DNA of 64,000 bases from the human T2T-CHM13v2.0 reference genome, Homo sapiens: positions 1,056,001 to 1,120,000 of the forward strand of contig CP068257.2 of assembly GCA_009914755.4 (NCBI GenBank), written 5' to 3'. This document shows positions 6,139 to 59,334 of the stretch, in pieces. The translations under genes were made by a program, and so were the position numbers. A model generated the notes under the pieces. It was not told the origin of the DNA, did no database searches, and worked only from the letters and a program-made list of their open reading frames with translations. Positions within the stretch are counted from its first letter, which is position 1, and each line of letters starts with the position of its first letter.

Positions 6139-8590
6139 TTTGAGTAAACAGCGTCTGAAAGTGTTGGGAGAGCCTCAGCCAGAATTTCACGGAGGGACAA
6201 GGGCACAGAGAGGCCAGCCGGCTCCCTTGCACATCAGCCGGGGTGCCCAATGAATGCAGGTCTAGCCAGGAGGCTGGCAAAGAGAGCTAGATGTCTGCGT
6301 TCCACCACCAGGCGCTCCATGGTGGCAGCTGGGAGGCTGCAGGAGCACGGGCGGGCCAGCGATGGTGGCACAGAGGCGCAGAGGAGGCGAGCCACCCGAG
6401 AGGTGTTAGTCCTGGATTCTGCATGGGCTTGGTGTTTCACAAGACGGGGGTCTCCACCCAGCCCAGGGGAGGATGCATTTTCCAGTGGTGATGGGTCAGG
6501 GTGGGGAGGGGCTGGTCAGGCGTGGGTAGGGTGGTGGAAAGGCATGATGGCTCTGCCTAGGCTGCTCCCACAGCCAGGCGGCTGCCCGCAAACCCGCGCA
6601 TGCCCAGAAGGCGGCCCACCTGCTGGTACCTGGGCCGGGTCTTGGATCCCCCAGATGCCCAGGAAAGAATGGCAGTTCTTCACTGGGTGGAATCTCTCTC
6701 CGGGCCTAGACCTAGAAGGCTAGAATCCCAGGCCGGTCAGACCAGTGGAGGGGTCGGGGGGAAGACATGCCCCTCCATAGCCAGCCAGGTGTTCCCCACG
6801 AAAGAGAGGCCACCGCCCTGCCCCGACCCGACCCTGTGCCAACCCCGCGACCTGAAGCTCCTCCAGCAGAGCCTGGTATTCTTCCTCGCTGAGGGGTGCT
6901 TCCAGCGAGGCGGCCTCTTCAAAGGCCTCCAGCTCCCCTGGGCCCTCCGTTTCTTGGAAGGGTTGCGCCTGCTGCAGAAACTCCGGGCTCACCAGGAGAT
7001 CATGCTGCAGCAGGCCAGAGGGGAGTGCAGAGGAGCGCCCAGGCTCCTGGAGCGCCTGGTAGGGCGCCAGAATTCCTTGCATCTGCACCTGCCACCCGGA
7101 GTCCTCCAGGGTGTCCCGGCTGGCGAGGTGGAGCTGCCCCAGCTTGGGGTTCCCAAGCCGCCCTGGCGACCTGGGGAACCCGTTCCCCACGCGCCGGTGT
7201 GGGTGAAGGCGACCAACGATGGATCAGGGTGACACCCGCCGGGGGCCGCGTTGCACACGCCACCTGCCTGCGCGGGCGACCTGCCAGCCTAACCCGGGTG
7301 CCTGGCCCGTCAATTCTGAAACCAAATCTGAATCCTGGACTCCCGGAGGCCCGTCTCTCTGGCCAGCTCTTCCCTGGCGGCGATGCCTGGAAAGCAATCC
7401 TTCTCAAAGGCTCAGAGGAGCAGGGCGGTCGGGGATCCGGTGATGGCGGTCCGCTTTACCTGCATTCTTGGGGGCTGCATATCCTGGGCCAGGGCCGAGA
7501 TTCCCGCCGGTGTTGCCTCAGCTGGCATGACCTCTCATTCTGAAACCAAATCTGGACCCTGGGCTCCAGAATGCTGATGGCCTTGGCCAGCCGTTCTCTG
7601 GTGGCGATGCCCGGGTACGGGTTCCACTCAAAACAGGCTCGCAGCCCCTAGCATTGGCTTGGGGTCCAAACGAATCTCCTTCACTGTCCCCGTCCCCGGG
7701 CTTCCACGGGGAGGGTGACATCCGAAGGTGTCGGGAGGGCCATCCCGGGTAGCCACAGCCGGAATTTCATGGACAGACATGGGCAGAAAGAGGCCGGCAG
7801 GCTCCCATGCACCTTAGCCGGCCTGTGCACTGTGGCAGGTGCAGCCAGGAGACCTGCCCAAAGAGCCAGCCACTGGCTCTTATAAAGGCCCGCAGGCAGG
7901 CAGGCTCCACGTCTTCATGAATGGCGGTGAGCCCTGGGACAGCCCGCCCCACCCCAGAAGTGTCCCAGGGCGACGAGGCCTGTGGCCGGGGGGTGGTGTG
8001 GTGGGGGGGGTGGGCGTGGTGATGGTGGTGGTGGGGCCGGAGAGACGAAGAGGAAGGGGGCGAGGGGGAAGCGGTGAGGGGGTTTCGTTTCGGGGGCTGG
8101 CTCTCCAGACTTCTCCAGGAATACCGCGGGAACTGGAAGCTGCTCTCTGGGCTCCCACGCGTCTTCAGCAGGGAGAAACCAGCCTGGAACGGTGGAGGGG
8201 AGTGTGGAACTGAACCTCCGTGGGAGTCTTGAGTGTTCCAGACCCTCTCTCCGTGAAGGAGGCAGTGCCTGTGGGTGTCGTCATTGCCGGGACAGTCTCA
8301 CACACGCAGGCATGTGGCTCTCATTCACTTCCACGTAGGAGACCAGAGCGAGACCACAGAGAGAAGATGCCTCCCCGGCCTGATGGCCTGATGATGGATT
8401 CCCGTGTGCGGCAACATGGGGAGTCTGCAGTGTGGTCGGTTTGGAAACTGGCAAGGACAGCGAAGGCACCATGCCGGTCTTCCACCCCTCCCTGCATGTT
8501 TCCGGGTGCCCGCACAGCTCTGGGAGCAAACAGTCAGCATGACACATCTCTGAACTGATAAACAAAGTGACGTAGTGACGTAACGCTTGT
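6139..8590 (-). repeat. D4Z4-like repeat unit A (antisense on + strand), with an internal deletion of about 400-450 bp in the DUX4-like body
   Basis: GC/CpG-rich block that interrupts the beta-satellite. Its reverse complement matches the D4Z4/DUX4 promoter (cctgcctgcgggcctttataagagcc...gtgaaattccggc...ATGGCCCTCCCGACACC), the homeobox, the C-terminal ...[13 protein letters not shown] region and the 3' flank. After 'caccggcgcgtggggaacggg' the sequence jumps directly to 'ttccccaggtcgccagggcggc'. Confidence 0.85.
6858..7743 (-). pseudogene. DUX4L: DUX4-like double-homeobox pseudogene (unit A): nonsense at codon 21 (CGA to TGA), frameshifts, internal deletion, and the LLEEL stop is lost
   Basis: Minus-strand reading gives [20 protein letters not shown] from the ATG at about 7743. 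ORF 7518..7721(-) is the frame-shifted homeobox. ORF 6720..7190(-) contains ...[17 protein letters not shown]... with no stop after LLEEL. Confidence 0.8.
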
Positions 8591-56509: not shown

Positions 56510-59334
56510 GAGCCTAGACAAGTGTTACATCACTTTGTTGATCAGTTCAGAGATGTGTAAGGCTGACCGTTTGCTCCCGGAGCTCTGTGGGCACTGGGAA
56601 ACATGCAGGGAAGGGTGGAAGTCTGGCATGATGCCTTCGCTCTCCTTGCCAGTTTCCAAACCGGCCACACTGCAGACTCCCCATGTTGCCGCACACGGGA
56701 ATCCATCGTCAGGCCATCACGCCGGGGAGGCATCTCCTCTCTGGGGTCCCGCTCTGGTCTCCTACGTGGAAATGAACGAGATCCACCCGCCTGCGTGTGT
56801 GAGACTGTCTTGGCAATGACGACACCCACAGGCACTGCTTCCTTCACGGAGAGAGGGCCTGGAACTGTCAAGACTCCCACGGAGGTTCAGTTCCACACTC
56901 CCCTCCTCCCTCCCAGGCTGGTTTCTCCCTGATGACTACACGTGGGAGCCCAGAGAGCAGCTTCCAGTTCCCGCGGTATTCCTGGTGAGGTCCAGAGAGC
57001 CAGCCCCTGAAACGCGACCCCTCACCACTTACCCCTCGCCCCGTTCCTGTTCGTCTCTCCGGCCCCATCACCAACATCACCACGCCATCACATCCCACAG
57101 CAACAGCCCCCGTCCGCAGGCCTCGACGCCCTGGAACCCTTCCGGGGTGGGGCAGGCTGCCCCAGTTCTCACCGCCATTCATTAAGGGGTGGAGCCTGCC
57201 TGCCTGTGGGCCTTTATAAGAGCCGCTGGCTGGCTTTCCGGGCAGGCCTCCTGGCTGCACCTACCGCACTGCACATATCGGCTGAGGTGCACGGGAGCCC
57301 GCCGGCCTCTCTCTGCCCGTGTCCGTGAAATTCCGGCCAGTGCTTCCCGTGATGGCCCTCCCGAAACCTTCAGACGGCACTCTCCCCGTGGAAGCCCGGG
57401 GACGGGGATGGCGAAGGAGACTCGTTTTGACCCCGAGACAAAGCGAGGACCTGCGAGCCTGCTTTGAGCGGAACTCGTATCCAGGCATCGCCGCCAGAGA
57501 ACAGCTGGCCCAGGCCATTGGCATTCCGGAGACCAGTGTCCAGATTTGGTTTCAGAATGAGAGGTCACACCAGCTGAAGCAGCAACAGCGGGAATCTCGG
57601 CCCTGGCCCTGGAGACGAGGCCTGCAAGAAGGCAGGCGAAAGCCGACAGCCGTCACCAGATCACAGACCCCCCCTGCTGCTCCGAGCCTTTGAGAAGGAT
57701 CGCTTTCCAGGCATCGCTGCCAGGGAAGCGCTGGCCAGAGAGACAGGCCTCCCAGTTTCCAGGATTCAGATCCGGTTTCAGAATCGAAGGGCCAGGCACC
57801 CGAGACAGGCTGGCAGGGCACCCGCCTAGGCAGGCTGCCTGTGCAACGCGGCCCCCGTCGGGTGTCACCCTGCTCCCTCTTGGGTCGCCTTCGCCCACAC
57901 TGGCGCGTGGGGAACGGGGCTTCCCGCACCCCAGGTGTCCTGCGCACCTGGGGCTCTCCCACAGGGGGCTTTCGTGAGTCAGGCATCGAGGGCTGTCCTC
58001 GTGCTCCAGCCAAGCCAGGCTGCGCTGGCAGAGGGGATCTCCCAACCTGCCTCACCATGCTGGGATTTTGCCTACGTTGCCCCAGGTCTTCCTGAAGAGG
58101 CGCTCTCCCACCCTCAGGCTCCTCGGTGGCCTCTGCGCCCAGACAAAAGCTGGGAGGACGGGGACCCGCAGTGCGTCAGCCTGCCGGGCCCTTGTACGGT
58201 GGGACAGCCTTGGCCCGCTCAAGCAGGGCCACAGGGCCAAGGTGTGCTTGTGCCACCCGCGTCCCAGGTGAGTCCGTGGTGGGGCTGGGGCCGGGGTTCC
58301 CAAGTCACCGGGGCGGCGTGGGAACCCCAAGCCGGGACAGCTCCACCTCCCCAGCCTGCGCCCCCGGAGGCCTCCGCGGGGCAGGGGCAGATGCAAGGCA
58401 TCCTGGCGTCCTCCCAGGCATTCCAGGAGCCGGGGCGCTCGTCTGCACTCCCCTCCAGCCTGCTGCTGGATTAGCTCTTGGCGAGCCAGGAGTTTCTGCA
58501 GCAGGCGCAAACTTTCCCAGAAACGGAGTCCCCTGGGGAGCAGGAGGTCTTGAAAGAGGCCGCCTCACTGGAAGCACCCCTCAGCAAGAAAGAATACCGG
58601 GCTCTGCTGGAGGAGCTTTAAGTCACAGAGTTGGGACGGGGTTGGGTCGGGGCAGGGCGGTGACCTCTCTTTCGTGGGGAACACCTGGCTGGCTATGGAG
58701 TGGCGTGTCTTCCCCCAGCCCCCTCCACCAGCGTGACAGGCCTGGGATTCCTGCCTTCTAGGTCTAGGCTCGGAGAGAGAGTCCACACAGCGGAGAACTG
58801 CCATTCTTTCCTGAGCATCCTGGGGATCTCAGAGCCGACCCAGGTACCAGCAAGTGGGCCGCCTACTGCACACGCGCGGGTTTATGGGCAGCCGCCTGGG
58901 CTGTGGGAGCAGCCTGGCAGAAGCGCTCATGCCTTTCCACAACACCACCCCCGCCTGACCAGCCCCACCCCACCCCCAAATCCCACCCCTGGAAATTGCG
59001 TCCTCCCATGGGCTGGGTGGAGACCCACGTCCGGTGAAACACCGAGCCCACGCAGCATCCAGGTCTGACACCCCTCCAGCGGCTCGCCTCCTCTGCACCT
59101 CCCCACCACCATCGCCGGCCAGCCCATGCCCCTGCAGCCTCACAGCTGCCACCATGGAGAGCCTGGCGGTGGAACGCAGACGTCTAGCTCTCTTTGCTGG
59201 CCTCCTGGCTAGACCTGCACTCATTGCGCACCCCGGCTGATGTGGAAGGAGACCGCTGGCCTCTCCGTGCCCTTGTCTGTCTGAGAAATTCCGGCTGAGG
59301 CTCTCCCAAAACCTTGCGACGCTCTTTAGTCAAA
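56510..59334 (+). repeat. D4Z4-like repeat unit G (sense), near full-length
   Basis: LSau-like 5' segment, TATAA (tgtgggcctttataagagccgctgg about 57210), ATG at 57352, terminus …gctggaggagctttaag at 58621, 3' flank to …ctctttagtcaaa|gcctggagaatag at about 59334. Confidence 0.9.
57352..58621 (+). pseudogene. DUX4L: DUX4-like pseudogene (unit G). Its 5' ORF 57352-57693 encodes 113 aa: homeodomain 1 complete, then a 1-bp insertion frameshift at the start of homeodomain 2
   Basis: [113 protein letters not shown]. The canonical …[16 protein letters not shown]… frame is lost (acccccctgctg vs accgccctgctc). Confidence 0.85.

What the first reader, a model, noticed from the sequence alone, without database searches (positions are those of the whole stretch)
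6139..59334. Composite higher-order repeat of about 10 kb: a D4Z4-like unit plus roughly 7 kb of beta-satellite, in which the duplicon includes specific flanking beta-satellite monomers
The D4Z4-like units recur at roughly 9-11 kb spacing (unit starts 6139, 16972, 26100; unit ends 37569, 47929, 59334). The same diverged block of about 400-1000 bp of beta-satellite monomers abuts the 3'-flank side of units A, B, C, D, F and G (e.g. 5750-6138, 16560-16971, 27853-28300, 37570-37950, 47930-48300, 59335-60400; it contains …ctgtacaaaaagcctggaaatgatttacatcacctcggtgatcagtgcataggt…). The LSau-like 5' ends grade into beta-satellite-like monomers at identical junction sequences. So these units appear to have spread by unequal exchange of a larger beta-satellite+D4Z4 block and not as isolated D4Z4 insertions.
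Basis: seen in the sequence. Interest (0 to 1): 0.5.

Follow-up and report, generated by a model that had tools for sequence, protein, structure and literature searches.

The report
Known D4Z4-like/beta-satellite composite repeat array

Summary
Seven D4Z4-like units or fragments alternate with 68-bp beta-satellite spacers of 4.3-8.6 kb. Both unit/satellite junctions are the same to the base in every intact copy. Six 3' ends carry the same four diverged monomers, at 90-94% identity in register against a 75% background. These monomers occur nowhere else in the arrays. They correspond to the distal part of pLAM (DUX4 exon 3) of the 4qA allele, without its poly(A) signal.

Typing the monomers shows that the whole spacer is collinear between copies. 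The shared order covers about 73 monomer types (about 5 kb) and is blurred by array-specific duplications and deletions. Contigs of human DNA found in public metagenome assemblies show the same junctions and the same order.

It is not a strict higher-order repeat. The period ranges from 3.2 to 11.4 kb, whole copies are about 80% identical, and the array switches orientation inside one unit.

This is the LSAU-BSAT (LSAU-BETA) composite of the T2T-CHM13 annotation, and its units are the 5'-truncated, ~3.1-kb D4Z4-pLAM form already reported at 319 copies. Verdict: real, correctly interpreted, already known, low interest.

The parts
1..6136 (-). Beta-satellite spacer L3, distal to unit A and cut by the window edge. 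Its last 4 monomers (5865-6136) are the pLAM-like junction monomers v-u-t-s.
   Evidence: TRF period 68; nhmmer monomers; monomer typing; in-register identity.
6137..8534 (-). D4Z4-like unit A. It is 5'-truncated, has a ~366-bp internal deletion, and its DUX4-like ORF is broken.
   Evidence: BLAST to the other units; tblastn with DUX4; KpnI site at 6625.
8535..16970 (-). Beta-satellite spacer L2 (123 monomers), running from the 3' end of B to the 5' end of A.
16971..19747 (-). D4Z4-like unit B. The DUX4-like ORF is collinear over 424 aa but has 3 stop codons.
19748..26089 (-). Beta-satellite spacer L1 (92 monomers). It starts in mid-order (types g-a-P-f...) and lacks the pLAM-like monomers next to fragment C.
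26090..27503 (-). D4Z4-like fragment C: the 3' 1.4 kb of a unit, antisense.
27504..27854 (+). D4Z4-like fragment C': the last ~350 bp of a unit, sense. The orientation switch lies at 27501-27505.
27855..34814 (+). Beta-satellite spacer R1 (101 monomers). Its first 4 monomers (27855-28126) are the pLAM-like v-u-t-s.
34815..37570 (+). D4Z4-like unit D; DUX4-like pseudogene.
37571..41922 (+). Beta-satellite spacer R2 (63 monomers). It is the shortest spacer and the closest to the inferred original monomer order.
41923..44541 (+). D4Z4-like unit E. Its 5' end is the beta-satellite junction; its 3' end runs on as tandem D4Z4.
44542..45168 (+). D4Z4 segment found only in the tandem form and unique in the window. 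It is part of the ~0.97 kb after the KpnI site that the composite units lack.
   Evidence: BLAST finds no other copy. KpnI sites at 44203 and 47446 give a 3243-bp unit.
45169..47916 (+). D4Z4-like unit F. It encodes the DUX4 double homeodomain but is frameshifted, and it has a 24-bp deletion at the pLAM boundary.
   Evidence: PDB 5z6z (DUX4), E = 2.5e-66; Pfam PF00046.
47917..56568 (+). Beta-satellite spacer R3 (126 monomers), with an internal duplication of about 55-60 monomers.
56569..59336 (+). D4Z4-like unit G; DUX4-like pseudogene.
59337..61358 (+). Beta-satellite spacer R4 (25 monomers). It is collinear with the first 22 monomers of L2 and R3, interrupted by an Alu, and ends against HSat.
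59485..59789 (+). AluY-like insertion with a poly-A tail and the target-site duplication GCCTGGAAATG, inside the third pLAM-like monomer of G.
   Evidence: sequence read directly; alignment

Best explanation
The region is a segment of the human LSau/D4Z4-like + beta-satellite composite repeat (LSAU-BSAT).

Shown here: the ancestral composite had three parts. The first was a 5'-truncated D4Z4 unit of about 2.75 kb carrying a DUX4-like gene. The second was about 0.4 kb homologous to pLAM, whose distal 270 bp are four diverged beta-satellite monomers. The third was an ordered spacer of roughly 70 beta-satellite monomers (about 5 kb) that ends in a fixed partial monomer fused to D4Z4.

Inferred: this whole block was amplified in tandem by unequal exchange between beta-satellite monomers. 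Later unequal exchanges inside individual spacers duplicated or deleted runs of 10-60 monomers. That gives periods of 7-11 kb, and it removed the pLAM monomers next to fragment C. The array then stopped being homogenised and decayed. Decay included CpG loss, broken ORFs, an inversion inside one unit, an Alu insertion and a 366-bp deletion.

None of the copies can make DUX4. Every ORF is broken, and the position of the 4qA ATTAAA poly(A) signal reads GTCACAATG.
For: - Layout and 68-bp periodicity.
- D4Z4/DUX4 identity: PDB DUX4 E = 2.5e-66; Pfam homeodomain; one KpnI site per unit, and 3243 bp KpnI to KpnI from E to F; CpG 5.0-6.0 per 100 bp, as published for paralogous D4Z4 (PMC10620044).
- Identical 3' junctions and 5' junctions.
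- Junction-specific flank monomers, 0.90-0.94 identical against 0.75.
- pLAM homology: a 98-nt 4qA sequence printed in PMC7822190 has its six best window matches exactly at the six flanks, at 82-87% identity and 96-114 bits. Generic monomers reach at most 69 bits.
- Collinear monomer-type order across all spacers.
- Similar divergence of body and flank.
- Elsewhere in human DNA: at least 120 public contigs carry the same 21-nt 5' junction. Of the 37 that are long enough, 32 have the 54-mer about 2.9 kb downstream, and the long ones show the same monomer order.
- Literature: LSAU-BETA/LSAU-BSAT composite, with 80-95% identity within arrays in centromere transition regions (10.1101/2021.07.12.451456); beta-composite arrays (10.1101/2021.07.12.452052); 319 copies of a ~3.1-kb 5'-truncated D4Z4-pLAM in LSAU-BSAT regions (PMC10620044).
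Against: - Copies in the window are only 78-81% identical overall.
- The unit tree is star-like, so the order of duplications and flank/body congruence cannot be shown.
- Pairs involving spacer L1 are not collinear above the shuffled control (L3-L1 and L1-R1).
- Window units are closer to copies elsewhere (median about 90%) than to their neighbours (84-86%). Local tandem amplification may therefore not be the whole history; the block may have arrived as an already heterogeneous segment.
- The metagenome contigs are short-read assemblies of repeats and could be partly chimeric.
- The mechanism of unequal exchange is inferred, not observed.
Confidence: 0.9

Rival explanations
1. Only the ~3.1-kb D4Z4-pLAM element is the mobile or duplicated unit. 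It entered pre-existing beta-satellite arrays several times, and the similarity of the spacers reflects beta-satellite's own internal structure.
For: The most strongly shared flank (4-5 monomers) is the pLAM homologue, so it can be counted as part of the element. Beyond it, only subsets of copies share monomers in register. Beta-satellite blocks of 10-22 monomers also recur at many offsets within single spacers.
Against: The 5' junction lies at the same base and the same monomer phase in all five copies, and the preceding monomers (types y-x-w-z-V) are shared. After array-specific deletions, every spacer resumes the same order (U-b-J-C-C-R-Q-I-A-T...) and ends the same way. Collinear chains exceed block-shuffled controls. 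Independent contigs show the same full order.
Confidence: 0.05
2. The flank similarity is secondary. Gene conversion or homogenisation between units that were originally unrelated made their junctions and flanks alike.
For: The flanks are somewhat less diverged (5.5-10%) than the bodies at all sites (13-15%).
Against: With CpG columns masked, the bodies differ by 8-10%, like the flanks. No pair of copies shows a recent conversion tract, and all pairs are about equally distant. Conversion cannot create identical breakpoints in a non-homologous context.
Confidence: 0.03
3. The repeat pattern is an assembly artefact, produced by mis-joined or collapsed reads of one locus.
For: Satellite regions are prone to misassembly, and there is an abrupt orientation switch at 27501-27505.
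Against: Copies differ by 8-15% and carry private indels, an Alu with a target-site duplication, and distinct spacer architectures. Artefactual duplicates would be near-identical.
Confidence: 0.02

Closest known systems
LSAU-BSAT (LSAU-BETA) composite repeat of T2T-CHM13, also called beta-composite arrays (Hoyt et al., 10.1101/2021.07.12.451456; Altemose et al., 10.1101/2021.07.12.452052)
   Same: D4Z4/LSau-like units interspersed with 68-bp beta-satellite and arrayed in tandem. Intra-array identity is in the 80-95% range described for centromere transition regions. The window also borders a (GGAAT)n-type satellite.
   Different: Nothing essential. This stretch also has an orientation switch inside a unit, one D4Z4 tandem doublet and an Alu insertion. 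The monomer-resolved spacer order worked out here is extra detail, not a difference.
5'-truncated ~3.1-kb D4Z4-pLAM paralogue (Butterfield et al., PMC10620044; 319 copies in T2T-CHM13)
   Same: The units lack the ~0.97 kb after the KpnI site. They keep ~0.34 kb of the next D4Z4 unit and ~0.4 kb homologous to pLAM. CpG density is 5.0-6.0 per 100 bp (about 5.4% published). The DUX4-like ORFs are divergent.
   Different: The window copies are more decayed. They are 84-86% identical to each other and about 90% to other copies, and every ORF is broken.
Distal end of the 4qA allele at 4q35: D4Z4, then pLAM, then 6.2 kb of beta-satellite (PMC4787827, PMC7822190)
   Same: The parts come in the same order and meet at the same D4Z4/pLAM junction. 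The spacer size is similar (about 5 kb inferred against 6.2 kb). The pLAM exon 3 region is itself beta-satellite-like.
   Different: 4qA has a long tandem D4Z4 array with intact DUX4 and the ATTAAA poly(A) signal. Here single truncated units alternate with satellite, the poly(A) signal is absent and the genes are dead.
Alpha-satellite higher-order repeats
   Same: A multi-monomer block is the unit of amplification, and the likely mechanism is unequal exchange.
   Different: There is no fixed monomer number, the period varies from 3.2 to 11.4 kb, and copy-to-copy identity is about 80% where 95-100% would be expected. The block also contains a non-satellite, gene-derived element.

Membership tests
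LSAU-BSAT composite repeat | A GC-rich D4Z4/LSau-homologous unit carrying a DUX4-like double-homeobox sequence | tested here: met
LSAU-BSAT composite repeat | 68-bp beta-satellite arrays between the units | tested here: met
   TRF period 68. 625 monomers cover everything outside the units, the Alu and the HSat array.
LSAU-BSAT composite repeat | Unit of the 5'-truncated D4Z4-pLAM type (~3.1 kb, lacking ~0.9 kb after the KpnI site) | tested here: met
   The unit starts 966 bp after the KpnI site. The 2.75-kb body plus 0.27-0.34 kb of pLAM-like monomers gives 3.0-3.1 kb. pLAM homology was tested with the 98-nt published 4qA sequence.
LSAU-BSAT composite repeat | Location on acrocentric short arms, at 1q12 or in other pericentromeric heterochromatin | not testable with these tools
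   The origin of the window is unknown and no human reference is available. The adjacent (TGGAA)n satellite at 61377-63980 fits but proves nothing.
LSAU-BSAT composite repeat | Same junctions in other genomic copies | tested here: met
   At least 120 public contigs carry the exact 21-nt 5' junction. 32 of the 37 long enough have the 3' flank 54-mer about 2.9 kb downstream. The monomer order is the same.
Strict higher-order repeat (alpha-satellite sense) | Fixed number of monomers per unit and near-identical copies | tested here: not met
   Spacers have 63-126 monomers. Whole-copy identity is 78-81% and unit bodies are 84-86% identical.
4q35/10q26-type D4Z4 macrosatellite | Long tandem array of complete 3.3-kb KpnI units with an intact DUX4 ORF | tested here: not met
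   There is only one tandem step (E to F, 3243 bp). All ORFs have stop codons or frameshifts.
FSHD-permissive 4qA-type distal unit | ATTAAA poly(A) signal in the pLAM exon 3 homologue | tested here: not met
   All copies read ATATGTCACAATG (ATGTGTCACAATG in D and G) where 4qA has ATATATTAAAATG (checked against PMC7822190).

The most novel reading that the evidence does not exclude
The ordered spacer of about 73 monomer types reconstructed here may be collinear, monomer by monomer, with the 6.2-kb beta-satellite distal to pLAM on 4qA. In that case the disease-permissive 4qA end would be a single copy of this composite. DUX4 exon 3 and its poly(A) signal would then be a co-opted beta-satellite monomer, with ATTAAA arising from the satellite's GTCACAATG. 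The relationship between D4Z4-pLAM and the acrocentric copies is already proposed in the literature. Only the monomer-level orthology of the whole spacer would be new.
Probability: 0.4. Interest if true: 0.3.

Novelty: already known. Interest (0 to 1): 0.15.

Why it matters
It adds little new biology. It confirms from sequence alone that D4Z4-like units in heterochromatin spread as a D4Z4-pLAM-beta-satellite block, which is the published view of LSAU-BSAT composites. There are two practical points. The pLAM-like flanks and DUX4-like sequences in such arrays are off-targets for FSHD assays and guide RNAs, as already reported. Human composite repeats are also common in public 'metagenome' assemblies. 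The monomer-type map could serve as a fine-scale marker set for tracing rearrangements in these arrays.

Tried and rejected
- Tree congruence of flanks against bodies: the distance matrices are star-like (bodies 12.8-15.2%, flanks 5.5-10.2%). The correlation (r = 0.57, or 0.33 with CpG columns masked) mostly reflects shared long branches, so the test is uninformative.
- A recent palindrome or inverted duplication around 27.5 kb: rejected. C and C' are 79% identical, no left-arm/right-arm unit pair is closer than the others, and L1 against R1 is not collinear above the control.
- Simple offset-0 register across whole spacers: this holds only for the first 4-22 and the last 1-18 monomers. Monomer typing was needed to see the collinearity through indels.
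- Rfam scan of the window: no family reached its gathering score.
- The pLAM guide-RNA sequences of PMC10620044 are not held as supplements. I used a printed 4qA oligonucleotide from PMC7822190 instead.
The pLAM result was then confirmed with the published sequence, and the DUX4 N-terminus with the PDB.
- One script crashed on a degenerate monomer after printing 12 of 15 long contigs. The printed part was enough.
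Full report
**Layout.** The window is human-type satellite DNA. GC-rich blocks (0.60-0.69) alternate with stretches of GC 0.46-0.48 that TRF resolves as a 68-bp repeat. A profile search with the 68/69-bp consensus finds 625 beta-satellite monomers. They cover everything except seven GC-rich blocks, one 324-bp gap and a terminal (TGGAA)n array.

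BLAST of the 6-kb block against the window defines the D4Z4-like units:
- A 6137-8534, B 16971-19747 and C 26090-27503 are antisense.
- C' 27504-27854, D 34815-37570, E 41923-44541, F 45169-47916 and G 56569-59336 are sense.

**Identity of the units.** Unit F encodes the DUX4 double homeodomain. Its best match among solved structures is DUX4 (5z6z), E = 2.5e-66, and it matches Pfam PF00046. Every one has stop codons or frameshifts, and A lacks residues ~192-313.

Each unit has one KpnI site about 490 bp before its 3' end. From E to F the KpnI-KpnI distance is 3243 bp, the classical D4Z4 period. The 627 bp at 44542-45168 occur only in this tandem step.

A composite unit therefore starts 966 bp after a KpnI site and runs through the next KpnI site. 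It keeps 338 bp of the following D4Z4 unit and then leaves D4Z4. This is the '5'-truncated, ~3.1-kb D4Z4-pLAM' form that Butterfield et al. count at 319 copies in LSAU-BSAT regions (PMC10620044). CpG density is 5.0-6.0 per 100 bp, against their ~5.4%.

**The 3' flank.** I oriented every spacer from a unit's 3' end towards the next unit's 5' end. In that register the first four monomers are 0.90-0.94 identical in all 15 pairs of the flanks of A, B, C', D, F and G. Random four-monomer runs average 0.75, and only 0.6% of them reach the lowest observed value.

These four monomers have no counterpart above 0.88 anywhere else in the arrays. They are also unusually far from the satellite consensus. 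The sixth copy, at G, is split by an AluY-like element (59485-59789) with a long poly-A tail and the target-site duplication GCCTGGAAATG.

Sharing extends to 5 monomers in five copies, 12 in B/D/F/G and 21-22 in B/F/G.

A 98-nt 4qA sequence around the DUX4 poly(A) signal, printed in PMC7822190, has its six best matches in the window exactly at these six flanks. They score 82-87% identity and 96-114 bits, while generic monomers reach at most 69 bits. The 'diverged beta-satellite block' is therefore the pLAM/exon 3 homologue, and pLAM is itself satellite-like. Where 4qA has ATTAAA, the copies here read GTCACAATG, so none has the poly(A) signal.

The low-coordinate side of fragment C (26089 and below) keeps the D4Z4 side of the junction but continues with generic monomers.

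**The 5' flank.** In A, B, D, E and G the satellite-to-D4Z4 junction is identical to the base...GTCATGCTGAC|TGTTTGCTCC..., at monomer phase position 17. The last monomer is shared by all five. Five or six monomers are shared by four spacers, and 18 by L1 and R2.

**The whole spacer.** Clustering the monomers into types and writing each spacer as a string shows one common order:

v-u-t-s-0, twelve further types, 3-U-b-J-C-C-R-Q-I-A-T-i-q-h-j-g-a-P-f-O-N-Z-H-M-E-E-e-d-c-Y-L-K-G-D-A-X-S-B-F-n-W-k-p-m-l-o-r-D-A-+-2-y-x-w-z-V

This is about 73 monomers, or about 5 kb. Individual spacers carry their own duplications and deletions of 10-60 monomers. The shorter shared flanks of A and C' are deletions after which the common order resumes.

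Collinear chains at 87% monomer identity or more cover 34-76% of the shorter spacer. They exceed block-shuffled controls in most pairs. The exceptions involve L1.

**Age and tree.** Unit bodies are uniformly 84-86% identical, so the tree is star-like. With CpG columns masked they differ by 8-10%, similar to the flanks at 5.5-10%. About 22% of pairwise mismatches are of the CpG-decay type.

**Copies elsewhere.** Where the contig name states a source it is human gut or skin, so these are human DNA. Of the 37 contigs long enough, 32 carry the 54-mer 2.82-2.92 kb downstream. Long contigs show the same monomer-type order on both sides of the unit, and some have short 25-monomer spacers.

Window units are closer to these copies (median about 90%, best 95-96%) than to one another. 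This fits an old, non-homogenised array. These contigs are short-read assemblies and may be partly chimeric.

**What it is.** The unit of duplication is the composite: truncated D4Z4, pLAM homologue and ordered beta-satellite spacer. It was most likely amplified by unequal exchange, remodelled by unequal exchange within spacers, and then left to decay. The mechanism is inferred; the anatomy is shown.

**Comparison with what is known.** This is the LSAU-BETA/LSAU-BSAT composite of Hoyt et al., who report 80-95% identity within arrays in centromere transition regions. It is also the 'beta-composite array' of Altemose et al.. Interspersion of D4Z4 homologues with beta-satellite on acrocentric arms and at 1q12 has long been known. 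The order of parts mirrors the 4qA end: D4Z4, pLAM, 6.2 kb of beta-satellite.

It is not a strict higher-order repeat. The period is 3.2-11.4 kb and whole copies are 78-81% identical. It is also neither a 4q/10q-type array nor a permissive 4qA-type unit.

**Verdict.** The feature is already known and of low interest. The only reading with some novelty is monomer-level orthology between this spacer and the 4qA beta-satellite, which cannot be tested with the tools available here.

Noticed in passing
window 27501-27505 (fragments 26090-27503 and 27504-27854): The orientation of the whole array switches inside a D4Z4-like unit. An antisense 1.4-kb fragment is joined, interior to interior, to a sense 0.35-kb fragment, so both 3' ends face outward. 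The two arms are not mirror copies: C and C' are 79% identical, and spacers L1 and R1 are not collinear above the control. This points to an old inversion or a head-to-head junction, not a recent palindrome.
   Followed up: partly
window 59485-59789: An AluY-like element with a pure poly-A tail of about 30 nt and an intact target-site duplication (GCCTGGAAATG) is inserted in the third pLAM-like monomer distal to unit G. It looks much younger than the array around it.
   Followed up: partly
window 61377-63980: A (TGGAA)n HSat2/3-type satellite (521 copies, 76% matches) abuts the truncated last beta-satellite spacer. The window therefore spans a boundary between two satellite families.
   Followed up: no
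window 41923-47916: Units E and F form a true D4Z4 tandem step (KpnI to KpnI 3243 bp) inside the composite array. It includes 627 bp (44542-45168) found nowhere else in the window.
   Followed up: yes
window 26031-26100: Next to fragment C, generic beta-satellite replaces the pLAM-like monomers right at the D4Z4 boundary, and the spacer starts in mid-order (types g-a-P-f...). This fits a deletion by exchange between the first pLAM monomer and an interior monomer.
   Followed up: partly
window 7172-7182 and 47890-47916: Two private deletions. Unit A lacks about 366 bp of the DUX4-like coding region. Unit F lacks 24 bp at the D4Z4/pLAM-monomer boundary.
   Followed up: partly
loci L001-L120 (metagenome contigs): At least 120 contigs in public metagenome assemblies (human gut or skin where the contig name says so) carry the exact human beta-satellite/D4Z4 junction, so human heterochromatin is present in these data sets. 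L039 and L045 show a short 25-monomer spacer variant. L068, L025 and L027 are 95-96% identical to window units D, F and G.
   Followed up: partly
window 6045-6137, 27854-27950 and the other four 3' flanks: The published 4qA sequence around the DUX4 poly(A) signal aligns to ordinary beta-satellite monomers at 75-79% (473 hits). DUX4 exon 3 and its ATTAAA signal therefore sit in a diverged beta-satellite monomer. I did not check whether the literature states this explicitly.
   Followed up: partly
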